A stretch of DNA of 64,000 nucleotides from Dehalococcoidia bacterium (GTDB lineage Bacteria > Chloroflexota > Dehalococcoidia > GIF9 > AB-539-J10), in the NCBI GenBank assembly GCA_021157895.1, contig JAGGVQ010000006.1:8393-72392 (forward strand). Reading direction: 5' to 3'. The notes below the pieces were generated by a model. It did not search any database. It saw nothing but the letters and a program-made list of their open reading frames with translations, and had not been told where the DNA came from. The translations under genes and the position numbers were made by a program. This document shows positions 3,509 through 62,025 of the stretch, in pieces. Each line of letters starts with the position of its first letter. Positions within the stretch are counted from its first letter, which is position 1.

Positions 3509-4258
3509 CTATGTTAGCACAAGCATTTTTCCTGATTCAATAGGTGGTTTGGCCAGGGGTTGATTACTGGCTTTGTTTCTTTTCCCCCTCGAGCGGATTC
3601 TCCAGGCGATGCTTCCTGTGAACAGCGTTTCTGCTAGGATAAGGCCGCATCCGAACCAGGCGGCATCCTGCCAGAATCCTTCGGGAAATAGCATTATCAG
3701 ATAATCTGTGCTTGGGTCGAGCATCCAGTAGGAATTGCTGAAGCTAGTAATATGGAATTGTGTGAATATCCATTCGAAATTAATAACCGATGCAATGGCA
3801 AACATTCCAGTAAAAGCCAGGGTGAAGACGCACCCGGATATAATTCCTCCAGCTAAGTTTCGCCATCGCTCTTTGTTCCACAGCAGAAATAGCAGTGAGT
3901 AGATAATAATGTAGATAAAGCTTATCAGTTGAAGACGATGATTGAACTGGAATAAGTCTTTTACATCCTTGAGGTGAATAAGTTCGTAGTCGTGAAACAG
4001 GTCGAATTCTCCTCCGTGGTTAGGGGTCATCCTCATTTGGGGAGTTTCGACTCTGGAATTGAAGTAATCAATCAATCTGGTTGCTATTCCTTCCAGTTGT
4101 ACCTCATTTATTCCTGTCACTTCGGCTATGGCATATCGAGAGAAAGCGTATTCATAGGTGCACTTGCTATTGACCATTCCATGAATGGTACTGGTGATAA
4201 ATAGCAGAGGGAAGCATGTGATGAATAGGTAATGTGTGATTGTTGTAGCAAATTTCAT
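3509..4258 (-). CDS. Integral membrane protein (TIGR01906/DUF1461-like).
   Basis: Multi-TM ORF ending 5 nt before recA. The track ORF runs to 4309, but the likely start is the internal Met (MKFATTI...) at 4258, which leaves a 66-bp divergent region before dnaE. Confidence 0.5.
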
Positions 4259-4324: not shown

Positions 4325-7300
4325 ATGCCACGCAAATTTACCCATCTCCATGTGCATACTGAGTATAGTCTACTTGATGGTATGTGTCGCATTCCGCAGT
4401 TGATTACCAGAACTAAGGAATTGGGCATGGATAGCATTGCTATCACTGATCATGGTGTCATGTACGGTGTCATTGATTTTTACATGGCTGCCAAGGACGC
4501 GGGAATTAAGCCTATTATTGGCTGTGAAGTTTATCTTGCTCAATCCAGCCGCCATAGGCGTGATCCTGCCAACCGTCGTCCATACCACCTCACCTTACTG
4601 GCCAAGAATGATAAGGGATACCGGAACCTGATACAACTGGTTACGAAGAGTAGCCTTGAGGGCTTTTACTACAAGCCTCGAGTGGATAAGGAACTGTTGT
4701 CTCTTCACCACGAAGGGCTTATTGCCCTTTCTGGATGTATTCAAGGAGAAGTGCCTCGCCTTATTTTGGATGGTAGACCTGATGAGGCAGCTCGAGCAGC
4801 TTCATGGTATAAAGAGGTTTTTCCCGATTACTACTTTGAAATTCAGAGGCATCCCATTCCTGCAGTCGAGCAAGTCAATGAGGGGCTTCTTTCTTTATCC
4901 TCCAAACTTGATATTCCACCTGTAGCGACCTTTGATGTTCATTATATCAATCGGGAGGATGCTGCTATCCACGAGTTGTTGCTGTGTATCCAGACGAACA
5001 CATCGATACATGATGAGAAGAGAATGAAGATGGCTGGTGACTATTTCTACCTCAGGAGTCCTGAGGAAGTGGAGGAGTTGTTTAGTAACCTACCTCAGGC
5101 GGTAGATAACACGCAGCGTATTGCTGATATGTGTCATTTGGAGTTGGATTTTACCCAGTTGCACTTGCCAAGAGTAGAAGTACCCCAGGGTAAGACAGAT
5201 GCGGATTACCTGAGTGAGCTTTGCTGGCAGGGGATGAAAACTCGTTACCCTGAGCCATCTCAGGAAGTTCAGGAACGGCTTGCTTATGAACTGGAGGTTA
5301 TTCATAAGACCCAATTTGACCAGTATTTCCTGGTTGTGCGGGATATTACCTCCTTCGCCAAAAGGGAGGGCATTTATTTTGGTGTCAGGGGCAGTGCTGC
5401 TGCCAGCGTAGCGTTATATTGTCTGGGTGTCACTGATATCGATCCATTACTTCATACTCTCGTTTTTGAACGTTTTCTTAATGTTGAACGTCTCCAGCCT
5501 CCTGATATCGACCTTGATTTTCAGGATGATCGCAGGGACGAGGTTTTATCTTATGTCACCGAGAAATATGGTAGCGACCGTGTAGCGCAGATCATTACCT
5601 TTGGCACTATGGGTGCCAAGGCGGCAGTAAGGGATACGGGAAGAGTTTTAGGTATGCCTTATGCTCAGGTTGACCGTGTAGCTCGAGCAATTCCCCAGGA
5701 CTTATCAATTTCACTGGATCGAGCTTTGCAGGAGAGCAGGGAGTTTTATGATATTTACCATCAAGATGATGAAGCACGCTCCCTGATTGATTCTGCTAGG
5801 AAGCTGGAGGGGTTGGTGCGACACTCTAGCACGCATGCTGCTGGAGTTGTCATCTCGTCTGAACCGTTGACGGAATATATGCCGCTGCAGATGGAGAAGA
5901 GGGGGGAACAGCATCTGGTTATGACCCAGTACCACATGGACAATGTTGCCCGATTGGGATTGCTGAAGATGGATTTCTTGGGATTATCTAATTTGACCTT
6001 GCTGGCTAAAGTACAGGCGATGGTAAGTCAGAAGCGGGGTATCTCTATAGATTTGAGACGTATTCCCCTTGACGATGTCAAGGCATTTCAATTATTGGCA
6101 TCGGGAGAGACTCACGGCATATTTCAATTGGAGAGTGCTGGGATGCGCCGGTACATAAAGGAACTTCAGCCAACAAAGTTTGCTGATATTTCCGCCATGA
6201 TAGCCCTCTATCGACCAGGACCGATGCAGCAGATTCCTACTTTTATAAAGGCGAAGCATGGTGTTATTCCTGTTAGTTACCCCCATCCTGCCCTGAAGGA
6301 TATTTTGGAGGAGACATATGGGGTTATTGTCTATCAAGAGCAGGTGATATTTATCGCTCGTGCTCTGGCTGGCTATAGCTTAGGGCAGGCTGACATCTTT
6401 CGTAAGGCGATGGGGAAAAAGATTGCTAGCGTGATGAAGAAAGAGGAACGCAATTTTATGATTGGTGCCAAGAAACAAGGGATACCAGGGAATGTGGCCA
6501 AAGAGGTCTTTCTCCTGATAGAGCCTTTCGCTGGCTATGCTTTCAATAAAGCTCATAGTGTTAGTTATGCGCTTATTGCTTACTATACTGCTTATCTTAA
6601 GGCAAACTATCCTGAGGAATATATGACAGCTTTTTTGAATACTTACATTGGAAATATGGATAAGGTTCATTCTGCAATCTCGGAGTGCCGTCGTCTCGGG
6701 ATTCATGTTCTACCTCCTGATGTTAGCCAGAGTCAGGCTCAATTTGCTATCGAAGATGGAGAGAAACCGGCGATACGCTTTGGATTGCTGGCTATCAAGA
6801 ATGTTAGTACCACTGCTATCAAGGCGATTTTATCTGCGCGGCAGGGGAAGGGGTCATTTGTATCTGTGGGGGACTTCAGTCATAGAGTCGATTTGCGCCA
6901 AGTGAATAGAAAAGTAATGGAAAGTTTGATTAAGGCGGGTGCCTTTGATTCTCTAGGTTCCCGTAAGGTACTTCTTGACTCGGTAAGCCAGATTATTTCC
7001 TCGGCTCAGCTTGAGCGGAGGATGATGGATTCCGGGCAAATGGGCTTGTTTGGCTCTAACCCTCCTGCCCCTGTGAAATTGGGCGTTGACACTGAGCAAA
7101 GAGAAGAAGTGTCGGTGAGGCAAAAGCTTATCTGGGAGAGGGAATTGCTGGGAGTTTATTTCTCGGCACATCATCTATATTTGGCAGATTCAGATTCTCT
7201 CCCTTCATCTCTCATTTCCTGTACTGAGATTGATTCCTCGATGGAGGACCACGTTGTGGTGATTGCTGGAGTGGTGGCCACATTGCGTCAGGTTTATAGC

Positions 7301-7765
7301 CGGGATCATCGCGTCTTTGTTATTGCTACTATTGAAGACCGAGATGGTAGCATGGAGGTCACAGTGTGGCCCAAGGTGTATGAAAGCACCAGGGGTTTAT
7401 GGCATGAAGGGAATATTTTGGTGGTCAGGGGGTTGGTTAAGGTGAGGAATAGCACGGTAGGTGTGAGTTGCCAGCAAGCGTGGCGTTACCAGCATGATGA
7501 ACAGGAGAACAATATCTCGAATTCTTCTGGCAAGCACCACCTGGTAATAAAGATCAAGCAAACCGAGGAGGTAGAGAAGGATATCAGGCGCCTTCATGAT
7601 GTTATGGAGATCTTGCGTAACCATTCAGGACAGGATAAAGCCTCTGTTAATGTGCTTAGTGGGAAAGAGAAAGTTAAGCTTAAGATGTCGGTAGGTTATT
7701 GCTCTAAGCTGGTTGATGAGTTGGCTAGTGTGGTGGGCAGGGACAGCTTGATTGTGGATGAATAG
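4325..7765 (+). CDS. dnaE: DNA polymerase III alpha subunit.
   Basis: PHP-domain N-terminus (MPRKFTHLHVHTEYSLLDG), a polymerase core and an OB-fold C-terminus. The start is taken at the Met of MPRKF rather than the upstream track start. A TATAAT at 4306-4311 may be the -10 element. Confidence 0.95.
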   Translation: MPRKFTHLHVHTEYSLLDGMCRIPQLITRTKELGMDSIAITDHGVMYGVIDFYMAAKDAGIKPIIGCEVYLAQSSRHRRDPANRRPYHLTLLAKNDKGYRNLIQLVTKSSLEGFYYKPRVDKELLSLHHEGLIALSGCIQGEVPRLILDGRPDEAARAASWYKEVFPDYYFEIQRHPIPAVEQVNEGLLSLSSKLDIPPVATFDVHYINREDAAIHELLLCIQTNTSIHDEKRMKMAGDYFYLRSPEEVEELFSNLPQAVDNTQRIADMCHLELDFTQLHLPRVEVPQGKTDADYLSELCWQGMKTRYPEPSQEVQERLAYELEVIHKTQFDQYFLVVRDITSFAKREGIYFGVRGSAAASVALYCLGVTDIDPLLHTLVFERFLNVERLQPPDIDLDFQDDRRDEVLSYVTEKYGSDRVAQIITFGTMGAKAAVRDTGRVLGMPYAQVDRVARAIPQDLSISLDRALQESREFYDIYHQDDEARSLIDSARKLEGLVRHSSTHAAGVVISSEPLTEYMPLQMEKRGEQHLVMTQYHMDNVARLGLLKMDFLGLSNLTLLAKVQAMVSQKRGISIDLRRIPLDDVKAFQLLASGETHGIFQLESAGMRRYIKELQPTKFADISAMIALYRPGPMQQIPTFIKAKHGVIPVSYPHPALKDILEETYGVIVYQEQVIFIARALAGYSLGQADIFRKAMGKKIASVMKKEERNFMIGAKKQGIPGNVAKEVFLLIEPFAGYAFNKAHSVSYALIAYYTAYLKANYPEEYMTAFLNTYIGNMDKVHSAISECRRLGIHVLPPDVSQSQAQFAIEDGEKPAIRFGLLAIKNVSTTAIKAILSARQGKGSFVSVGDFSHRVDLRQVNRKVMESLIKAGAFDSLGSRKVLLDSVSQIISSAQLERRMMDSGQMGLFGSNPPAPVKLGVDTEQREEVSVRQKLIWERELLGVYFSAHHLYLADSDSLPSSLISCTEIDSSMEDHVVVIAGVVATLRQVYSRDHRVFVIATIEDRDGSMEVTVWPKVYESTRGLWHEGNILVVRGLVKVRNSTVGVSCQQAWRYQHDEQENNISNSSGKHHLVIKIKQTEEVEKDIRRLHDVMEILRNHSGQDKASVNVLSGKEKVKLKMSVGYCSKLVDELASVVGRDSLIVDE

Positions 7766-7974
7766 TGTGCCAGCAATACAGATGCTGGGAGAGCTCTTAT
7801 TTTTCAATAGGCATGGCTGGGTGAGAGGCTTGTTTCCTATTGTCTGGGAATACTTCTTCGAGTGGCAGGGTAACTGAGATTGTATCGTGATATAATGCTT
7901 GATTAATCAGAGGTGGTCAGACATGTGCTACTGGATACTTTGATTATTTTGTTTATCAGGACAAACAAGGTGAA

Positions 7975-11340: not shown

Positions 11341-11700
11341 GGCGGCAGGTAAATCTATAAGCCGAATTCTGTACCTGTAATAGGTGGTGACCATCCATCT
11401 AGCCCTGATGTTACCATCAGGGTCAAGCGACCAACCCAAGAACATCAGCCGAGCACTTCAATCGTTCTTTATTTGGTCTTGCTCCAGGTGGGGTTTGCCC
11501 AACCAATTAGTCACCCAATTGCTGGTGAGCTCTTACCTCGCCATTTCACCCTTGCTCTCAAATAATGGAGCGGTGTAGTTTCTGTGGCACTTTCCGTGAG
11601 ATTACTCTCCCTGGAAGTTATCCAGCACCCTGCTCGGGGGAGTTCGGACTTTCCTCTGCGCACATCCGGTGCGAAGCGGCCACCCAATTTACCTGCCACT
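11341..11700 (-). ncRNA. rnpB: RNase P RNA (bacterial type), about 360 nt.
   Basis: The reverse complement carries GAGGAAAGTCCGAAC (P4 5' strand), AGGGTGAAATGGCGAGGTAAGAGCTCACCAGC, GGGCAAACCCCACCTGGAGCAAGACCAAATA, CTAGATGGATGGTCACC and ACAGAATTCGGCTTATAGATTTACCTGCC. The 5' GGCAGGTAAAT pairs with the 3' ATTTACCTGCC to form P1. The only ORFs in this gap are short, mutually overlapping calls. Confidence 0.9.
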
Positions 11701-32100: not shown

Positions 32101-32176
<76 letters not shown>

Positions 32177-33973: not shown

Positions 33974-34062
33974 GGAGGGATCGCATAGAGGTCTAGTGCG
34001 GGCGCCTGCTAAGCGCTTACTCCGAGCAATCGGGGTCGTGGGTTCAAATCCCACTCCCTCCG
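33974..34062 (+). tRNA. tRNA-Ser (anticodon GCT) with a long variable arm. No CCA is encoded.
   Basis: Acceptor GGAGGGA/TCCCTCC, anticodon loop CUGCUAA, a long extra arm and T-loop GGTTCAAATCC. Confidence 0.85.
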
Positions 34063-35138
34063 CCGTTCTTCAGCTTTCCCTTCAGAAAATCGATTGCCTT
34101 CACTGGCGTGGGGTCAGTTCCATATAGCATGGCCAGATAATAGCTTGTCCAGTCACCGAGAAATACCAGGCTCATCATCTGGCTCAGGTCGTCAGTTCCC
34201 TTACTGTTGACTATCTGGTGTTCCACTCCGGCGTTGCTCAGCATCTGGCTGGTTATCGTGTAGCGTGCCTGTATCCTTGGGTGTAGCGAGGGACACCGCA
34301 GCAGAATCACATATATGTCAGGTGACATTTCGTGAGGGAATTCGTACCCGACTACGGAATTATGGTTGAGCTCGGATAAGGTTTCATAGAAGGCCCATGC
34401 CTTGCTGTTTTCGTTGAATTGTCCTTTCCATCTTCGAGCTACCGGTGATAGCGTGCCTGCCCCGTATATCACAATAATTTTTCCTGCCAGTTTCTGTGCC
34501 AGCTGCTTGGCAGGGTTAGCAGATTCAGGAACATTCTCTGCCAGATCTGCTAGGGAAGATTCCAGAATTTGAGCCATTTCCTGCACCTCCTGGGATTTAT
34601 CGGGCAGAAAGCTTAGTTGAGAGAGTAAGGCGATAAGAGGAATGAAGCTGTATCCCAGGGCAGCTCGTGGCGCTGAAATGTAATCTATGGTGAATGTGGG
34701 TATTCCATTATCCCGCGCTAACTGTTTTACCTTACCATTGGTGGTGAAGGCTACTTTCTTGCAATCTGTCTTCAGGGCTTGCTGGAAGGCAGAGAGAGTT
34801 TCCTCGGTGTTTCCTGAGTAGCTGGAGATGACTACCAGTGTTTTATCATCGGCCCACGAAGGTAAGCCGTATTCGCGGTTGACGAAGACTAGGGGTTTAT
34901 TCAGTCTGGATGTCAAACTGCGGAGAAGGTCGCCACCAATAGCGGAACCCCCCATGCCACAAATCACGATTTTATTGATGTCCTGGAATTCGCGGGGCAA
35001 ATGTAGCTCATTGGCTTTATTCCAGGCTTGCCTGATCTGCTGTGGCAAGTTGTGCAGGTGAGTGCGCATGCCGTCGGGGTCATATCGTTGGTATGTCTCT
35101 GCTTGGTCCAGATTTATCCTGTTGCTATATGCGGACAA
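34044..35138 (-). CDS. Bifunctional phosphoglucose/phosphomannose isomerase (SIS-domain type).
   Basis: SIS-domain motifs (GMGGSAIGGDL). The 3' end overlaps tRNA-Ser by 19 nt on the opposite strand. Confidence 0.75.
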   Translation of the reverse strand: MSAYSNRINLDQAETYQRYDPDGMRTHLHNLPQQIRQAWNKANELHLPREFQDINKIVICGMGGSAIGGDLLRSLTSRLNKPLVFVNREYGLPSWADDKTLVVISSYSGNTEETLSAFQQALKTDCKKVAFTTNGKVKQLARDNGIPTFTIDYISAPRAALGYSFIPLIALLSQLSFLPDKSQEVQEMAQILESSLADLAENVPESANPAKQLAQKLAGKIIVIYGAGTLSPVARRWKGQFNENSKAWAFYETLSELNHNSVVGYEFPHEMSPDIYVILLRCPSLHPRIQARYTITSQMLSNAGVEHQIVNSKGTDDLSQMMSLVFLGDWTSYYLAMLYGTDPTPVKAIDFLKGKLKNGGGSGI

Positions 35139-56763: not shown

Positions 56764-57444
56764 ATGGACGACATCGAAGGGAGAACAAAGAAAGTAGTGA
56801 TAATAGGGACGGGACATGTGTTTAACTTGAGAGGTAAGGTGAGAACTATAATCCATGATGTGGAACCGCAGGCGGTCTGTGTCGAACTTGATGATGGGAG
56901 ATATGAGGCTTTATTTCATGGTAGGGGCAGGTCGTTTCATCCTCTGGCTCTGTTGCAGGCGCTTATGGCCACTATCTATGGCACAGTTCCGGGAAATGAC
57001 ATGCTTGGTGGGATAGAGGGAGCAAGAGATATTGGGGCCGAACTGTTTTTAATAGATAAGGATATACGAGTTATCAAGAGAGGGCTTCGCCAGGCATTTA
57101 TATCGGAAATTTTGAATCCGGTTGAGATAGCAAGGAAGCTTGTGCGATTTCCACCCATCGCGTTATCTCGCCCACGTGCAATGTTGAATTTTGAGGATTC
57201 AGTAAAGGAGTTTGAGAAGGATCCAGAGAGATACAGGGATTTGTTGGGCAAGTCCTTTCCCCGAATTAGAAAGGTACTTTTGGATGACAGGGAAAGGTAT
57301 ATGGCAATCAGGGTAAAGGGAATACTGGAGAGGTTTGATGATATTGCTATTGTTACTGGGGCTGGACATGTGATTGGTTTACGGGGCCTCTTATCTGACT
57401 ATGATATCAGGGTGTTCTCCCTGACCACGTTACTCGGTGGTTGA
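56764..57444 (+). CDS. TraB/GumN-family protein.
   Basis: VVIIGTGHV...GAGHV signature. Confidence 0.65.
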   Translation: MDDIEGRTKKVVIIGTGHVFNLRGKVRTIIHDVEPQAVCVELDDGRYEALFHGRGRSFHPLALLQALMATIYGTVPGNDMLGGIEGARDIGAELFLIDKDIRVIKRGLRQAFISEILNPVEIARKLVRFPPIALSRPRAMLNFEDSVKEFEKDPERYRDLLGKSFPRIRKVLLDDRERYMAIRVKGILERFDDIAIVTGAGHVIGLRGLLSDYDIRVFSLTTLLGG

Positions 57445-58422
57445 AGAACTATGTTTCCGTGCAGCGAATTTCAATTGCTGACTGTGTTGATATATGCGCT
57501 CTATATTTTCTCGGCCGGGACTGCCCTGAGTTTTCTCGCTGGTAACATTAATGCCTGCTGCTATGGTTGCGAGAGTAAGCGTTCTTTCCATTCTGATACC
57601 GAGGTTGTAATATGCAGCGAAAGCCCCAGCGAATACATCTCCGCAGCCGACGGCGTTAACGACATGTAAGCCGAGATTTGCCAGGGGCAAGGCGGATATC
57701 TCTATTACCATATCGGTAGTGGGATCTAACAGGATAGCCCCCTGGGATCCACGCTTGAGCACGGTTTTGCTGGTGAATCCCAGATGTTTTAATTGTTTCA
57801 AGGCCGCTTTCCACTCTGCGGTACCTAGAAATACACTGGATTCAGCTTCGTTCAAGAATATGACGTCTGCTTTCCCTATCAGTGGTTGCAGAATTGATAT
57901 CCCCTGGTTTAGCAATATTCCAGGATCCCATAGTATGGGAATGCCTTGGCGTTCTCCCCATGCCACCACTTGCGATGCCACATCCAGAGGGGGGTCGGTG
58001 AGTATGATGCCCTGGCATTGTTGTAATAGTTGTCTTGTGGCTGGATTATGGAGATGTTCTATGGTCAACTTAGCATTGGCTCCCAGGTAACTTGCGATGA
58101 TGTTTTGTCCTTTTTGGTCCACCATGATATATGCTTGTCCTGAACTCTCGGCTGGTATCTTTCTGATCCCAGAGGCATTAACTCCTTTAGTCTCCAGGTT
58201 GACTATCTGTCTGTGGGCAATGTCATCCTCTCCAAGAGCTGCGATCAGGGCGACCTGACCTGCTCCCAAGATTTGTGCTGCAGCCACTGCCACGTTGCTG
58301 CCAGTGCCTCCAGCTTCAGAGGAGACGCGTGTTACGCATACCTCTTCTCCAGGGAGTGGAAGATGCTCGGTGAAGCAAGTGGTATCCCAGTTAATTGCTC
58401 CACATACAACTAGATTGACCAT
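57430..58422 (-). CDS. PfkB-family carbohydrate/ribokinase-like kinase.
   Basis: Ribokinase N-terminal VVCGAINWD motif and GG and DTxGAGD-type motifs. The start is taken at MVNLVV rather than the upstream track start. Confidence 0.75.
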   Translation of the reverse strand: MVNLVVCGAINWDTTCFTEHLPLPGEEVCVTRVSSEAGGTGSNVAVAAAQILGAGQVALIAALGEDDIAHRQIVNLETKGVNASGIRKIPAESSGQAYIMVDQKGQNIIASYLGANAKLTIEHLHNPATRQLLQQCQGIILTDPPLDVASQVVAWGERQGIPILWDPGILLNQGISILQPLIGKADVIFLNEAESSVFLGTAEWKAALKQLKHLGFTSKTVLKRGSQGAILLDPTTDMVIEISALPLANLGLHVVNAVGCGDVFAGAFAAYYNLGIRMERTLTLATIAAGINVTSEKTQGSPGRENIERIYQHSQQLKFAARKHSSSTTE

Positions 58423-58423
58423 G

Positions 58424-59440
58424 TTATCTACCGAATACACGTGACAGGAATAATTGTATAAATCGAGCTTCATCTACGTCGATAGCTAGGTGTATGAATG
58501 GCATCCTGTTTCCTAGGCCCAGAGGTAAAATACGAGTCATGCCGCGTTCCTCATCACTCGTGGTGATTACTTCCACAGGTACGGACATAAAACCAAATAG
58601 CGAAGGATCCAGCAGGCTTGCTAGGGTCAGGGGATCATGGAGTTCGCAGCATCCGTGGTGCTGGATTGCATATTCCGTAAGCTGTATAGCCAATGAGATG
58701 GCTGGGGAGTGTCCTGTCTCCAACTGATTCAGGTGTTTGTTGCTCAAGCAGACCTCAGGATTCGCCGAGACGTCAAGGCCGATGGCGGTGACATCTATTC
58801 CAGAGGTAAATACGATAAAGGCAGCTTCAGGATCCTGCCAGATGTTAAATTCAGCAAGGGGGGTTTTATTTCCTCTGCCAAAAGGGGTGATGTGGTAAGC
58901 TCCTCCCATCAGTATCATTCGCGACAGCAACTTGGGTAGTTGGGGGTGGCTCTGGAATGCCTGAGCTATGTTGGTCAGTGGGCCTGTAGCCACTAATACA
59001 ATCTCATGCGGGTGTTGTGAAGCTAGCTGAGAGATAAGCTCGGGGGCTGGTTCTGGATCAAGTGGGAACTTTCTCTCTGGCAGAGCAAGCTTGCCCAATC
59101 CGTCTGGACCATGATAGCTGAGTGCGTGTTCAAGAGGTCGTTCCAGGGGGCTTGCTGCTCCTTTAGCTACCGGGATATTGTGTATGTTACAGGCTTCCAG
59201 CACCTGACAGGCATTAGCGCTGGTAAGTGCCACCGGGGCATTACCCGCCACCGTGCTTATGCCCATAACCTGAACCTCTGGTGACTTTAAGGCCAAGATC
59301 AGCGCCAGGGCATCATCAATGCCAGGGTCCATGTCCATGATTATTCGCTGGACATTACCTTTTTCCATAGGGCTCTGATACTCTATCACAGATTTTGTTG
59401 TAGGGAGAAGCAGAGGGAAAGGCGATAGCGATGGTAACAA
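58424..59440 (-). CDS. iunH: Inosine-uridine-preferring nucleoside hydrolase family protein.
   Basis: DMDPGIDDA aspartate cluster. The true start is probably MEKGN... at 59368. Confidence 0.85.
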   Translation of the reverse strand: MLPSLSPFPLLLPTTKSVIEYQSPMEKGNVQRIIMDMDPGIDDALALILALKSPEVQVMGISTVAGNAPVALTSANACQVLEACNIHNIPVAKGAASPLERPLEHALSYHGPDGLGKLALPERKFPLDPEPAPELISQLASQHPHEIVLVATGPLTNIAQAFQSHPQLPKLLSRMILMGGAYHITPFGRGNKTPLAEFNIWQDPEAAFIVFTSGIDVTAIGLDVSANPEVCLSNKHLNQLETGHSPAISLAIQLTEYAIQHHGCCELHDPLTLASLLDPSLFGFMSVPVEVITTSDEERGMTRILPLGLGNRMPFIHLAIDVDEARFIQLFLSRVFGR

Positions 59441-59514
59441 TTGACGAGGTTATCAGATTACTGGAGCAGGAATATGGGCCACGGCAGTGGAAGGCGTATG
59501 GTGATCCGGTCACT
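59207..59514. repeat. Copy 1 of a direct repeat of about 300 bp (iunH 5' end, intergenic region and nth 5' end).
   Basis: About 98% identical to 60332-60620 apart from a 19-bp indel. Confidence 0.9.
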
Positions 59515-59542
59515 GTAGTTAATAGCAATAATCATCATAAGA

Positions 59543-59580
59543 CAAAGAGCCTCTAGAAATAGAGGCTCTTTGCTCCTTTT
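59543..59580. terminator. Bidirectional terminator-like hairpin with a 12-bp perfect stem (caaagagcctct / agaggctctttg) and a 6-nt loop.
   Basis: A T-rich run follows on the plus strand and a U-rich run follows on the minus strand. It lies 60 nt downstream of the usp stop. Confidence 0.6.
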
Positions 59581-59639
59581 AGAGTTCAACCAGACATTAA
59601 TGACAGGTCTGTACTCTCTTTGGGGTCGACTGTTTAAAC

Positions 59640-60137
59640 TCAGCTTGTTGTTGGTACTAGCAGAACTGGCTTAACATTAGCACGTGCTACCTTTATGGCA
59701 ACACTCCCTATGTACCACTGGCTATGTCCTGAAAACCCATGGGTTGTCATTGCAATCACGTCGGCATTGACTTTATTGGCATACTCGACAATTTGCTGGG
59801 GAGCATCCCCGACTATTACCTCGGAACTTGTAGAGAAACCCATGCCTTTCAATTTATCAACTGCCTTATCAAGATATGCTGTGATTTGAGATTTGGCCTT
59901 TGAAATTTCTCTCTCGTCTCTAAAAACCGAGCCGCCAATGGTTGACTCAACGTCTACAGAAGTTGATTTAGGTGGTTTACCAGGAAAAGTGATAGGGGAA
60001 GGAATGTTGTATACTTCTGGCACTTTGCTAGGTATTACATGAAGCACCTTAATTTCCGCACCAGAAAAATTCGCCTTGAGACATGGGAAAATAGATTCAG
60101 CTAAGACCGATCCATCAAGAGGAACAAGTATTTTCAT
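59640..60137 (-). CDS. Universal stress protein (UspA family).
   Basis: A 165-aa Usp fold (KILVPLDGS...VIAMTTHG...VLLVP). Confidence 0.8.
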   Translation of the reverse strand: MKILVPLDGSVLAESIFPCLKANFSGAEIKVLHVIPSKVPEVYNIPSPITFPGKPPKSTSVDVESTIGGSVFRDEREISKAKSQITAYLDKAVDKLKGMGFSTSSEVIVGDAPQQIVEYANKVNADVIAMTTHGFSGHSQWYIGSVAIKVARANVKPVLLVPTTS

Positions 60138-60331
60138 TTTCTACCTCCTTATTATAAAGACAAGTTGATTATATTGTAACAAATTGTGTTCAAAAGTAAA
60201 GTATATGCATGCTTAACTTTAACACTGTTGTCAGACGGAATTGGAAAAGGGGTGATAAATGATAAGTAGGGATGCTTTGAAAGCGAAGTTGCTTATTGTT
60301 ACCTAGGATGTTGAATGGCTAGTGGAAGTGG

Positions 60332-60620
60332 CAGGCGTTAGCGCTGGTAAGTGCCACCGGGGCATTACCCGCCACCGTGCTTATGCCCATAACCTGAACC
60401 TCTGGTGACTTTAAGGCCAAGATCAATGCCAGGGTCCATGTCCATGATTATTCGCTGGACATTACCTTTTTCCATAGGGCTCTGATACTCTATCACAGAT
60501 TTTGTTGTAGGGAGAAGCAGTGGGCAAGGCGATAGCGATGGTAACAATTGATGAGGTTATCAGATTACTGGAGCAGGAATATGGGCCACGGCAGTGGAAG
60601 GCGTATGGTGATCCGGTCAC
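60332..60620. repeat. Copy 2 of the direct repeat. It lies immediately upstream of, and includes, the start of intact nth.
   Basis: Base-by-base comparison with 59207-59514. Confidence 0.9.
60365..60460 (-). pseudogene. Decayed duplicate of the iunH N-terminus. The 19-bp deletion frameshifts it after ...DPGID.
   Basis: It translates MLPSLSPCPLLLPTTKSVIEYQSPMEKGNVQRIIMDMDPGID and then out of frame. Confidence 0.7.
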
Positions 60621-61194
60621 AGTGTTGATAGGAACGATATTGTCCCAAAATACATCGGATGTCAATTCACATAGAGCATTACATTCACTTATTTCCTCCT
60701 TTGCTTCCTGGGAAGCTGTGCTTGCTGCACCAGTGAAATCTGTCAGTTATGCTATCATGAGTGGTGGGCTGGCACAAATTAAGGCTGCCAGGATTAAGCA
60801 GGTGCTTTCTCAGATTAAGCAGGAACAGGGTCATATTGATTTAGACTCTCTTTATTTTGCGACGATGCCCGAGGCCAAAGAATATTTAATGCACCTGCCT
60901 GGCGTAGGACTGAAAACAGCTAGTTGTGTGTTGTTGTTTTCGCTGGGGAAACCATGTATGCCTGTAGATACCCATGTTTTTCGGGTATCTAAGCGATTGG
61001 GATTGATCGATACGGGGACTTCTGTAGCCAGGGCACATGAATGGTTGCAGCAGCGAGTTCCCCCTGGTAGCGTGTATCAATTTCATCTGCACATGATTGA
61101 GCATGGCAGGAAGGTATGTCATGCTCGGCGACCTCTATGTGGCGAGTGTGTATTGCGAAAAATATGCCGTAGCGCACCTTATTTGCAAGGCTGA
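60520..61194 (+). CDS. nth: Endonuclease III.
   Basis: HhH-GPD motif (LPGVGLKTA) and a C-terminal 4Fe-4S cluster (CxxxxxxCxxCxxxxxC). Confidence 0.9.
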   Translation: MGKAIAMVTIDEVIRLLEQEYGPRQWKAYGDPVTVLIGTILSQNTSDVNSHRALHSLISSFASWEAVLAAPVKSVSYAIMSGGLAQIKAARIKQVLSQIKQEQGHIDLDSLYFATMPEAKEYLMHLPGVGLKTASCVLLFSLGKPCMPVDTHVFRVSKRLGLIDTGTSVARAHEWLQQRVPPGSVYQFHLHMIEHGRKVCHARRPLCGECVLRKICRSAPYLQG

Positions 61195-61248
61195 TGAGAG
61201 AAGTAGGGATGCCATATCTGATGGTATAATTCGTTCATAGCGCAGATA

Positions 61249-62025
61249 TTGAGGAGCAAAAATCTGGCTACCAAGTTTCAGATATTGCTGGAGATAGCCA
61301 GAAAACAGCCTAACATACAACAGAGGGAAGTTGCTCGCCAGATAAACACCACGGCGCAAGCAGTATCTGGGTATGTCCGGGAGATGGTGAACTGTGGCTG
61401 GCTTAGTTCGCAAGGGCGTTCCCAGTATAGGGTGACCAGGGAAGGAGTGGATTGGATATTAAGGATGTCCAGGGAATTACAAGGATACTCTATATTTGTG
61501 AGCAGGGTAGTAAGAGATATATCCACATCTACAGCCATAGCTGCTGGCGATCTATCTGAGGGACAGCAAGTATCTCTGTATATGGAGAATGGATTGTTAT
61601 TTGCTTCTGCCTATAATGGGGGAGGGGGAGCGAAAGGAGTAGCGATATCATCGGCCGAGCAGGGGTGGGATGTCGGAGTTTCTGATGTGGAAGGTCTAAT
61701 TTCTTTGGAGACTGGAGAAATTATTATATGCAAGATTCCCAGCGTGCAAAGAGGATGCTCTAGGAATACTAATCTCGACAGGCTGCGAATCGAAGTTAAT
61801 GAAGTGAAGCATGTTGGAGCTATAGGCATCGAGGCTCTGGCAGCACTGAGACAAATAGGACTGGAATCCGTTTACTTCTATGGGGCAAAGGAGGCTGCTA
61901 TTGAGGCTGCCCATTGTGGTTTGTTTGTTACCCTCGTTTGTGTTGCTGATGCAATTCCCGCTTTAGCACAAAGTTTGGGGGAGGAGGGGATAAATTACAG
62001 GATTATTGACCTGGAGCAAACTTAG
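61249..62025 (+). CDS. Putative winged-HTH transcriptional regulator with an uncharacterised C-terminal domain.
   Basis: The N-terminal 70 aa look like a wHTH (ILLEIARKQP...REVARQINTTAQAVSGYVREMVNCGWL). Confidence 0.45.
   Translation: MRSKNLATKFQILLEIARKQPNIQQREVARQINTTAQAVSGYVREMVNCGWLSSQGRSQYRVTREGVDWILRMSRELQGYSIFVSRVVRDISTSTAIAAGDLSEGQQVSLYMENGLLFASAYNGGGGAKGVAISSAEQGWDVGVSDVEGLISLETGEIIICKIPSVQRGCSRNTNLDRLRIEVNEVKHVGAIGIEALAALRQIGLESVYFYGAKEAAIEAAHCGLFVTLVCVADAIPALAQSLGEEGINYRIIDLEQT

What the first reader, a model, noticed from the sequence alone, without database searches (positions are those of the whole stretch)
59207..60620. A 300-bp near-identical direct repeat flanks an inserted universal-stress-protein gene between divergent iunH and nth
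Segments 59207-59514 and 60332-60620 are about 98% identical, with a handful of substitutions and one 19-bp indel. Each contains the 5' end of iunH, the shared promoter region and the first codons of nth. Between them lie a strong bidirectional terminator, a usp gene and an AT-rich promoter region. The left copy retains intact iunH but leaves a truncated nth stub. The right copy retains intact nth but leaves a frameshifted iunH stub. This R-X-R layout is the signature of Campbell-type single-crossover integration of a circular molecule carrying homology plus usp, or of a duplication followed by insertion. No transposase or integrase is present, so this would be a recent recombination-mediated gene gain.
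Basis: seen in the sequence. Interest (0 to 1): 0.7.

Follow-up and report, generated by a model that had tools for sequence, protein, structure and literature searches.

The report
Old repeat-flanked stress-gene insertion, still polymorphic
A small foreign stress-protein gene sits between two divergent housekeeping genes of an uncultured Dehalococcoidia bacterium, flanked by a duplicated 0.3-kb promoter segment; the layout is real but old, and some strains carry the locus without the insert, so it is a tidy example of known recombination processes rather than a new mechanism.

Summary
Window 59205-59516 and 60329-60623 are direct repeats (R). They differ by 4-6 substitutions and one 17-bp (not 19-bp) deletion, and they are the only long repeat in the 64 kb. 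Each R carries the iunH 5' end, the 62-bp spacer and the nth 5' end. Between them lie a hairpin terminator, a 165-aa usp gene and an AT-rich leader.

The insertion reading is supported. Twenty-seven related Dehalococcoidia MAGs have nth and iunH directly adjacent, none has usp there, and usp has the lowest GC of 55 window genes.

The "recent" reading is not supported. Contigs 5-9% diverged carry the same two junctions. Their repeats are more diverged (up to 6.6%) and have lineage-specific deletions in the dead gene stubs. X is about as diverged as the flanks.

The two R copies group by genome, not by position (19 informative sites to 1, with L097/L098 counted once). That indicates concerted evolution by gene conversion.

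Four assemblies of the window's own lineage (99.4-99.8% identity) carry an empty site with a single R. I read these as loss by R x R recombination.

How the event first arose cannot be resolved (Campbell-type integration, template switching, or staggered-break fill-in). Interest is modest.

The parts
57430..58473 (-). pfkB-family sugar/nucleoside kinase. It lies downstream of iunH in the same operon and overlaps iunH by 50 nt.
   Evidence: PF00294, E = 8.3e-38. The iunH-pfkB pairing is conserved in relatives.
58424..59368 (-). iunH (inosine-uridine nucleoside hydrolase), intact. Its first about 160 nt lie inside R_left.
   Evidence: PF01156, E = 4.8e-84, with the full-length profile matched.
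59205..59516 (.). R_left, the left copy of the 0.31-kb direct repeat. It holds the iunH 5' end, the 62-bp spacer (59369-59430) and the first 86 nt of nth.
59431..59556 (+). nth' stub ORF of 41 aa: 29 native residues followed by 12 unrelated ones. It is a non-functional remnant.
59517..59538 (.). Probable eroded extension of the original duplication. About 20 nt still resemble the continuation of nth at 60624-60645.
   Evidence: In an anchored comparison, 12 of 2000 shuffles reached the observed score. The L007/L097 R_left copies share two further nth-like bases here.
59543..59572 (.). Perfect 13-bp hairpin, a terminator candidate for usp (minus strand) and for transcripts leaving R_left on the plus strand.
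   Evidence: dG -23 kcal/mol, z = -5.4. The stem is invariant in L095 and L097, with one change in the loop.
59640..60137 (-). usp, a 165-aa single-domain universal stress protein family gene. It is the cargo of the insert.
   Evidence: PF00582, E = 1.5e-15. It has the lowest GC of 55 window genes, with GC3 0.349 (z = -4.1). The ORF is an intact 165 aa in six contigs, with dN/dS about 0.6.
60138..60328 (-). AT-rich usp leader and promoter region. GGAGG sits at 60144-60148. Sigma-70-like hexamer pairs lie at 60200-60173 and 60180-60151.
   Evidence: consensus matches only. It is 92% conserved in L095 and L097.
60329..60623 (.). R_right, the right copy of the repeat, carrying the 17-bp deletion between 60421 and 60422.
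60365..60475 (-). iunH' stub. It has the native start codon and 18 native codons, then a frameshift caused by the 17-bp deletion. It points toward usp, so the duplicated iunH promoter could read into usp.
   Evidence: The read-through is an inference.
60538..61194 (+). nth (endonuclease III family), intact. Its first 86 nt lie inside R_right. Haplotype b creates an upstream GTG at 60520, which gives the 224-aa gene call.
   Evidence: PF00730 and PF10576
61249..62025 (+). MarR-type wHTH plus DUF7839 regulator-like gene. It is the conserved neighbour of nth and is given here as context.
   Evidence: synteny

Best explanation
This is an old insertion-duplication allele. It is neither a mobile element nor a fresh integration.

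Founding event. In an ancestor of this Dehalococcoidia species complex, a self-contained foreign transcription unit of about 0.8 kb (promoter/leader, usp, hairpin terminator) was inserted between the divergently transcribed iunH-pfkB and nth-marR units. The same event duplicated about 0.31-0.34 kb of the target: the 62-bp spacer plus about 160 nt of iunH and about 86-107 nt of nth.

Why it is tolerated. The spacer is too short to hold both promoters, so they must overlap the neighbouring 5' coding regions. The duplication leaves each flanking gene with a complete upstream region and an intact 5' end. The hairpin insulates the units from each other. (Inferred.)

What has happened since.
(1) The two repeat copies exchange sequence by gene conversion and evolve in concert. 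This keeps them about 98% identical in this genome, although the event predates 5-9% lineage divergence. (Shown by site patterns.)
(2) The useless stubs decay by lineage-specific deletions: the 17-bp deletion here, 121 bp in L096 and 97 bp in L095. (Shown.)
(3) Crossing-over between the copies occasionally deletes usp plus one repeat and restores a perfect single-R locus. This would explain why strains 99.4-99.8% identical to the window carry the empty site. (The polymorphism is shown; the direction, loss rather than ancestral retention, is inferred.)

The founding mechanism is unresolved. My weights are one-step duplication-insertion by template switching or staggered-break fill-in about 0.4, Campbell-type crossover of an R+X circle about 0.35, and other routes about 0.25.
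For: - Repeat and anatomy.
- Ancestral adjacency: the MarR/DUF7839-nth and iunH-pfkB synteny holds in 53 MAG loci. Of these, 27 have a spacer of 95 bp or less and none has usp between the genes.
- Foreign origin: usp GC is 0.428 and GC3 0.349, against gene means of 0.482 and 0.495 (z = -2.5 and -4.1). It is the lowest of 55 genes and has no paralog in the window. The only close homologs are its own orthologs (90%); the next hits are 44% or less.
- Age: L007, L095, L096, L097 and L098, from five other samples, have the same R_right-X-R_left junctions at 91-94% nucleotide identity. Between lineages, usp dS is 0.09 and X non-coding identity 89-92%, against flank dS of 0.13-0.24.
- Concerted evolution: the quartet test gives sites grouping copies by genome versus by position of 5:0, 7:1, 4:0, 4:0 and 3:0. 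Within-genome copy divergence is 1.9-6.6%, against 4-10% between orthologous copies.
- Stub decay.
- Empty sites: L009, L102, L103 and L099 contig B each have a single R joining iunH directly to nth at 99.4-99.8% identity to the window. L102 and L103 come from samples with no usp contig on record.
- No diverged tract flanks X when the filled and empty alleles are compared. The first flank SNPs are 1.2-1.7 kb from R. This argues against recent introgression of X.
Against: - All data are short-read metagenome assemblies. Contigs break at R boundaries, and variants inside R (haplotypes a/b, +/-17 bp) appear in different left/right combinations among assemblies. That could be assembler mis-phasing rather than biology.
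- An empty-site path can in principle be produced by collapsing the R-X cycle in a de Bruijn graph. L100 (iunH flank, then R with the 17-bp deletion, then nth) looks like such a chimera.
- usp dS (0.09) is somewhat lower than that of its neighbours. A later arrival or later exchange of X is therefore not excluded, but the counts are small (10-11 synonymous differences).
- dN/dS of about 0.6 leaves open that usp is only weakly useful.
- Promoter positions and insulation are inferred from consensus scans only.
- Whether the empty allele is a revertant or a retained ancestral allele is not decided by the data.
Confidence: 0.7

Rival explanations
1. Recent Campbell-type gene gain. A circular molecule carrying one copy of R plus usp recombined with the chromosomal R by a single crossover shortly before sampling. 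The about 98% identity of the copies then reflects their youth.
For: - The R-X-R topology is exactly what a single crossover produces.
- Empty sites occur in the same lineage, and even in the same metagenome.
- No recombinase gene is nearby.
- usp is compositionally foreign.
Against: - The same junctions occur in lineages 5-9% diverged. X is equally diverged there, and the repeats differ by up to 6.6%.
- Different lineages have independent deletions in the stubs.
- X carries no replicon or vector function.
- The right repeat boundary is eroded.
- A Campbell event may still have been the ancient founding event, or may re-install popped-out cassettes. It is not recent for this allele class.
Confidence: 0.1
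2. The empty site is the retained ancestral allele, and the filled allele spreads. The presence/absence polymorphism would then be maintained by ordinary homologous recombination that moves the whole R-X-R segment between strains (gain), not by R x R deletion (loss).
For: - Empty alleles carry the functional half of each repeat, as an ancestral allele would.
- Both a and b haplotypes occur in empty sites.
- usp dS is lower than that of the flanks.
Against: - The filled state is shared by at least three diverged sub-lineages, while empty sites are so far seen only within the window lineage. One loss is therefore more parsimonious.
- Filled and empty alleles are near-identical right up to R. That does not fit a polymorphism maintained since before a 5-9% split.
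- The two processes are not mutually exclusive.
Confidence: 0.2
3. Assembly artefact. The second repeat copy, or the insert position, results from mis-joining of strain variants or from repeat expansion in a metagenome-assembled genome.
For: - The window comes from a MAG.
- L001/L011, from the JGI sample that is 100% identical to the window across the locus, is itself oddly structured, with inverted ends and an 18-kb jump.
- Variants inside R are inconsistently phased among contigs.
Against: - Both X/R junctions are present in at least ten contigs from at least eight samples and three data sources.
- The 20-28 kb contigs L095-L097 each span one flank, one full or partial R, X, and part of the other R.
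- L098 and L007 span R_right, X and part of R_left.
- The two copies carry copy-specific differences.
Confidence: 0.03
4. X is a non-autonomous mobile element or gene cassette (MITE-like, integron-like or island-like), and the repeats are an unusually long target-site duplication or att sites.
For: It is a compact promoter-gene-terminator unit flanked by direct repeats. The nth/iunH spacer holds different inserts in other Dehalococcoidia.
Against: - No terminal inverted repeats of 20 nt or more.
- No transposase, integrase or tRNA nearby.
- There is one copy only, always at this locus.
- The repeats are ordinary local gene sequence and are 20-100 times longer than transposase-generated duplications.
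- The common insert in relatives is a conserved leuC/leuD-like gene pair, not a mobile unit.
Confidence: 0.03

Closest known systems
Campbell-type (single-crossover) integration, or insertion-duplication, as seen with suicide plasmids and integrated episomes (my own knowledge)
   Same: The product topology is the same: a homology segment duplicated in direct orientation on both sides of the inserted DNA. One truncated and one intact copy of each interrupted gene results. Recombination between the duplicates can reverse it.
   Different: - No vector or replicon functions lie in the 0.8-kb insert, and no circular form was observed.
- The structure has been inherited vertically through 5-9% sequence divergence instead of being an unstable recent integrant.
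- The founding mechanism is not demonstrable.
Tandem duplications with inserted sequence at the join point, generated by template switching (MMBIR/FoSTeS-type) or by transformation-stimulated unequal crossing-over (merodiploids; Johnston et al. 2013, PMC3784515)
   Same: A short chromosomal segment is duplicated in direct orientation without any dedicated recombinase. The duplicates remain substrates for homologous recombination and for loss.
   Different: - The pneumococcal merodiploids are 100-900 kb, bounded by pre-existing IS repeats, and unstable (PMC3784515 abstract).
- Here the duplicated unit is 0.3 kb, was created de novo, carries foreign DNA at the junction, and is evolutionarily stable.
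- Junction microhomology cannot be tested because the donor is unknown.
LTR / solo-LTR dynamics and non-allelic gene conversion between flanking repeats (e.g. PMC4921805 for human LTRs)
   Same: Two flanking direct repeats evolve in concert by gene conversion, and crossing-over between them leaves a single solo repeat and removes the internal segment. This is the same logic as R-X-R going to a single R.
   Different: The repeats here are host promoter and 5' gene sequence, not element-encoded. There is one locus rather than a dispersed family, and it is bacterial.
Transposon or IS target-site duplication
   Same: Direct repeats of target sequence flank an inserted segment.
   Different: Transposase-made duplications are 2-14 bp (my own knowledge), whereas here the duplication is about 310 bp. 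There are no terminal inverted repeats, no transposase and no other copies.

Membership tests
Campbell-type single-crossover integrant | The homology segment is duplicated in direct orientation on both sides of the insert | tested here: met
   59205-59516 and 60329-60623, about 98% identical
Campbell-type single-crossover integrant | An unoccupied site with exactly one copy of the homology segment exists | tested here: met
   L009, L102, L103 and L099 contig B have a single R
Campbell-type single-crossover integrant | The insert derives from a circular molecule (replicon functions, or a detectable R+X circle) | tested here: not met
   X encodes only usp plus a terminator and a leader. No circular contig was found among the loci recovered. 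Reads are not available, so a transient circle cannot be excluded.
Campbell-type single-crossover integrant | Recent event: copies as similar as alleles, and absent from diverged relatives | tested here: not met
   The same junctions occur in lineages 5-9% diverged, with repeat copies up to 6.6% apart
Transposable element / MITE | Transposase gene or terminal inverted repeats | tested here: not met
   No inverted repeat of 20 nt or more at the ends of X. Only a Usp domain lies in X.
Transposable element / MITE | Short (2-14 bp) target-site duplication and multiple genomic copies | tested here: not met
   The duplication is about 310 bp. X is single-copy in the window. All usp orthologs found sit at this same locus.
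Site-specific integrative island (integrase + att, often at a tRNA) | An integrase gene adjacent to the insert and short att repeats, typically at a tRNA or tmRNA gene | tested here: not met
   No integrase appears in the conserved neighbourhood (gene tables). The nearest tRNA is more than 25 kb away.
Universal stress protein family (PF00582) | Pfam Usp profile match above the gathering threshold | tested here: met
   58.4 bits against a cutoff of 24, E = 1.5e-15, although only residues 73-162 align
Universal stress protein family (PF00582) | UspFG-type ATP-binding motif G-2x-G-9x-G(S/T) | tested here: inconclusive
   By eye the sequence has G-FS-G-HSQWYI-GS, i.e. G-2x-G-6x-GS, a shorter spacer. 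No structure or binding test was run.
Concerted evolution of direct repeats by gene conversion | Paralogous copies within a genome share lineage-specific substitutions, so they group by genome rather than by position | tested here: met
   Quartet counts are 5:0, 7:1, 4:0, 4:0 and 3:0. Caveat: these are short-read assemblies.
Duplication-insertion by template switching (MMBIR-like) | Microhomology between donor and target at both junctions | not testable with these tools
   The donor of X is unknown, since the nearest non-orthologous homologs are 44% identical or less. The event is old and the boundaries are eroded.

The most novel reading that the evidence does not exclude
The R-usp unit behaves as a recombinase-free, reversible 'plug-in' cassette. 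R x R crossover releases a 1.1-kb R+X circle and leaves a scar-free locus. Cells with the empty site regain the cassette by homologous recombination, either Campbell-type with the circle or by double crossover after DNA uptake. Both alleles are kept in the population over long times by fluctuating selection on the stress protein. The duplicated divergent promoter would be the feature that makes insertion and excision phenotypically silent for both neighbours.
Probability: 0.12. Interest if true: 0.6.

Novelty: new member of a known kind. Interest (0 to 1): 0.3.

Why it matters
This is a clean natural example of how a streamlined, uncultured bacterium can gain a foreign gene inside a very short divergent promoter region without damaging either neighbour. 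The price is a 0.3-kb duplication. It also shows what happens to such a structure over evolutionary time: concerted evolution of the repeats, decay of the dead gene stubs, and loss of the cassette in some strains.

It carries two practical lessons.
- Near-identity of flanking repeats is not a clock when gene conversion operates.
- 0.3-kb repeats of this kind systematically break and mis-phase short-read MAG assemblies. Many contigs here end exactly at R boundaries.

It does not reveal a new mechanism or a new family.

Tried and rejected
- **Extended homology.** I looked for homology between the ends of X and the continuation of nth and iunH. Local alignment was not significant. An anchored test gave a modest signal only at the nth-side boundary (12 of 2000 shuffles) and none at the iunH side (568 of 2000).
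- **Donor of usp.** The word-based homolog search found only orthologs (90%) and distant hits of 44% or less. The JGI metagenome scan with USP returned one unrelated 35% hit. There is no paralog in the window.
- **Comparable duplications in relatives.** I checked whether inserts in relatives (the leuC/leuD-like pair, and others) are also flanked by duplicated promoter segments. Only short interspersed repeats turned up (58 bp in L017, 42 bp in L037), plus a 307-bp inverted repeat in L028. These look like dispersed repeat elements, not target duplications.
- **Rfam.** Nothing was found in X.
- **Mobile element, integron or island readings.** Rejected for lack of any defining feature.
- **Literature.** Three searches found no description of this locus or of a directly comparable natural case. 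I read only the title, abstract and section outline of PMC3784515.
- **Not used.** I ran no structure prediction and no exhaustive HMMER search. They would not bear on the question.
Full report
**1. The observation**

Reading the sequence, the repeat finder and a pairwise alignment confirm a direct repeat R.
- The left copy is about 59205-59516 and the right copy about 60329-60623.
- From 59208 the copies differ at four substitutions: 59213 A/G, 59414 A/T, 59418 A/C and 59445 C/T. A fifth, at 59207, lies at the fuzzy edge.
- There is one 17-bp deletion in the right copy. Left-copy bases 59298-59314 are absent between 60421 and 60422, and the site is bracketed by ATCA microhomology.
- No other repeat of 40 nt or more exists in the 64-kb window.

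ORFs and Pfam give the following order.

| Feature | Coordinates | Strand |
|---|---|---|
| pfkB | 57430-58473 | - |
| iunH | 58424-59368 | - |
| nth stub, 41 aa | 59431-59556 | + |
| perfect 13-bp hairpin | 59543-59572 | . |
| usp, 165 aa | 59640-60137 | - |
| AT-rich leader | 60138-60328 | - |
| frameshifted iunH stub | inside R_right | - |
| nth | 60538-61194 | + |
| MarR/DUF7839 gene | 61249-62025 | + |

The hairpin folds at -23 kcal/mol, with z = -5.4. The leader carries GGAGG at 60144-60148 and sigma-70-like hexamers.

The window is bacterial: it holds an RNase P RNA of class A. NCBI names the three proteins as consecutive genes of a 'MAG: Dehalococcoidia bacterium' on a 162,653-bp contig.

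**2. It is not an assembly artefact**

The exact USP protein is encoded on contigs from JGI 3300017593 and from several ENA SPET22-1 samples. blastn shows that these contigs contain the X/R_left and R_right/X junctions. Many of them end exactly at R boundaries, as expected for a real 0.3-kb repeat in short-read graphs.

Orthologs at 90% protein identity lie on further contigs: L007, L008 and L095-L098, of which L095-L097 are 20-28 kb. They have the same layout.

**3. It is an insertion relative to the ancestral state**

A scan of GTDB species representatives with IunH returned 80 loci. tblastn synteny mapping shows that the MarR/DUF7839-nth and iunH-pfkB arrangement is conserved in 53 Dehalococcoidia MAG loci.

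| Content between nth and iunH | Loci |
|---|---|
| spacer of 11-95 bp only | 27 |
| conserved leuC/leuD-like pair (aconitase-family large and small subunits) | 22 |
| other content | 4 |
| usp | 0 |

usp has the lowest GC of 55 window genes: 0.428 overall and 0.349 at third positions, z = -4.1. It has no paralog in the window. Outside its own orthologs its best homologs are 44% identical or less. X is therefore a horizontally acquired unit inserted into a previously adjacent gene pair.

**4. It is not recent**

- Contigs L007 and L095-L098 are 91-94% identical to the window in nucleotide sequence and carry the same two junctions.
- Between lineages, usp has dS about 0.09, and the non-coding parts of X are 89-92% identical. 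The flanking genes have dS of 0.13-0.24. X has been diverging for roughly as long as its neighbours.
- In those lineages the repeat copies differ by 1.9-2.2% (L095, L096), 4.8-5.7% (L097, L098) and 6.6% (L007).
- The non-functional stubs carry independent deletions. L096 lacks the equivalent of 60294-60421. L095 lacks 59368-59464, which removes the iunH upstream region and changes its ATG.
- The nth-side edge of R continues for about 20 nt at reduced identity (12 of 2000 shuffles), as expected for an old repeat whose ends have escaped homogenisation.

**5. Why the copies are still 98% alike here**

In quartets made of window left and right copies plus another lineage's left and right copies, informative sites group the copies by genome rather than by position. 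The counts are 5:0 (L095), 7:1 (L096), 4:0 (L097), 4:0 (L098) and 3:0 (L007).

With identical junctions ruling out independent events, this pattern is the signature of concerted evolution by gene conversion between R_left and R_right.

Within the window lineage, three interior haplotypes (+17/a, +17/b, d17/b) occur in left, right and single-copy positions in different combinations. This fits ongoing exchange. However, assembler mis-phasing cannot be excluded for individual contigs, notably L002 and L100.

**6. The empty site**

- L009 is an 11-kb contig from the same JGI sample as a filled contig.
- L102 comes from JGI 3300005265.
- L103 comes from ENA ERZ2433807.
- The second contig of scaffold L099 comes from ENA ERZ23499370.

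Each joins iunH through a single R directly to nth, at 99.4-99.8% identity to the window flanks.

Two of these samples have no usp contig on record. L009 sits on a strain background with its own linked SNPs. A graph-collapse artefact is therefore unlikely to explain all four.

The filled state is shared by several diverged sub-lineages, and filled and empty alleles are near-identical right up to R. The simplest reading is therefore secondary loss by R x R crossover, analogous to solo-LTR formation. Retention of an ancestral empty allele, with spread of the filled one by ordinary homologous recombination, remains a viable rival. Both may operate.

**7. How it works (inferred)**

The iunH and nth start codons are only 62 bp apart, so each promoter must overlap the other gene's 5' region. 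Duplicating 0.3 kb that includes both 5' ends gives iunH a complete upstream region through R_left and gives nth one through R_right. The hairpin stops usp transcripts, and also the transcripts that leave R_left toward usp.

The duplicated iunH promoter in R_right points into usp. usp may therefore be driven both by its own AT-rich promoter and by iunH-type regulation.

usp is intact at 165 aa in all six contigs, but its dN/dS is about 0.6, against 0.11-0.31 for its neighbours. That suggests weak constraint.

**8. Origin**

All candidate routes need two illegitimate joints, and the donor is unknown. Campbell-type integration of an R+X circle, replicative template switching, and fill-in of a staggered break all yield the same product. 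I cannot separate them.

No transposase, integrase, terminal inverted repeats, tRNA target or additional copies exist. Mobile-element explanations are rejected.

**9. Verdict**

The structure is a well-documented instance of known processes: insertion-duplication, gene conversion, and repeat-mediated deletion. It is old and polymorphic rather than a fresh gene gain. Interest is modest, at 0.3.

Noticed in passing
L001/L011 (JGI 3300017593 Ga0187538_162729), locus positions 3581-3591 and both ends: This contig is 100% identical to window 57873-61422. It then jumps to window 40089, skipping about 18 kb, truncating pfkB and joining it to part of the 516-aa gene. Both of its ends are short inverted copies of nearby sequence. 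It is probably a chimeric or hairpin-type assembly artefact, or possibly a real deletion variant.
   Followed up: partly
L102 (JGI 3300005265), equivalent to window 57575-57755: This empty-site contig also lacks 181 bp inside pfkB, which shortens the gene call to 243 aa.
   Followed up: no
L095 (JGI 3300040952) 851-1030, equivalent to window 59367-59465: In this diverged lineage a 97-bp deletion removes the whole nth/iunH spacer and the iunH ATG. iunH is then called as a 355-aa ORF that starts just after usp. This may represent a new usp-iunH-pfkB operon or the beginning of iunH decay. L104, from a sister sample, starts at the same point.
   Followed up: partly
L105 (JGI 3300040952) 1-173: The nth-side contig of the same sample loses homology at window-equivalent 60759. 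That leaves a 130-aa nth, and the contig ends with 171 nt that match nothing fetched. It may be another rearrangement or a chimeric contig end.
   Followed up: partly
L016-L071 (22 loci), between nth and iunH: A large clade of Dehalococcoidia MAGs carries a conserved pair of genes upstream of iunH, on the same strand. They are about 420 aa and 177 aa and resemble the large and small subunits of isopropylmalate/homoaconitate dehydratase. Other loci hold a 548-aa acidic surface-type protein (L032), two MFS transporters (L046) or small ORFs (L035, L036). This spacer has changed content repeatedly.
   Followed up: partly
L017 5822-5879 / 7873-7930; L037 about 5798-5839 / 7812-7853; L028 5220-5526 / 7569-7874: Short dispersed repeats bracket the leuCD-like pair in some relatives (for example TCATTGCGAGGAGCGTAGCGACGAAGCAATC). 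A 307-bp inverted repeat at 94% identity brackets it in L028. They look like interspersed repeat elements.
   Followed up: no
window 60520 versus 59413-59418: The a/b promoter haplotype decides whether an upstream GTG exists. Gene callers therefore give nth as 224 aa (haplotype b) or 218 aa (haplotype a). This splits identical genes into different protein records.
   Followed up: yes
L014 (JAUXIH010000029.1, MAG CSMAG_2976) position 1, equivalent to window 59318: The closest GTDB species-representative contig starts exactly at the edge of the 17-bp indel inside R. This suggests that the population behind that MAG also has two R copies differing at this indel.
   Followed up: no
L044 10175-10612: One distant relative (RBG_13_51_36) has an unrelated USP-family gene, 33% identical, just downstream of pfkB.
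   Followed up: no
window 11342-11695; 274-427; 32101-32176; 33974-34064: The window also holds a bacterial class A RNase P RNA (293 bits) and four tRNA genes (Asp, Ile, Ala, Ser). None is near the locus.
   Followed up: no
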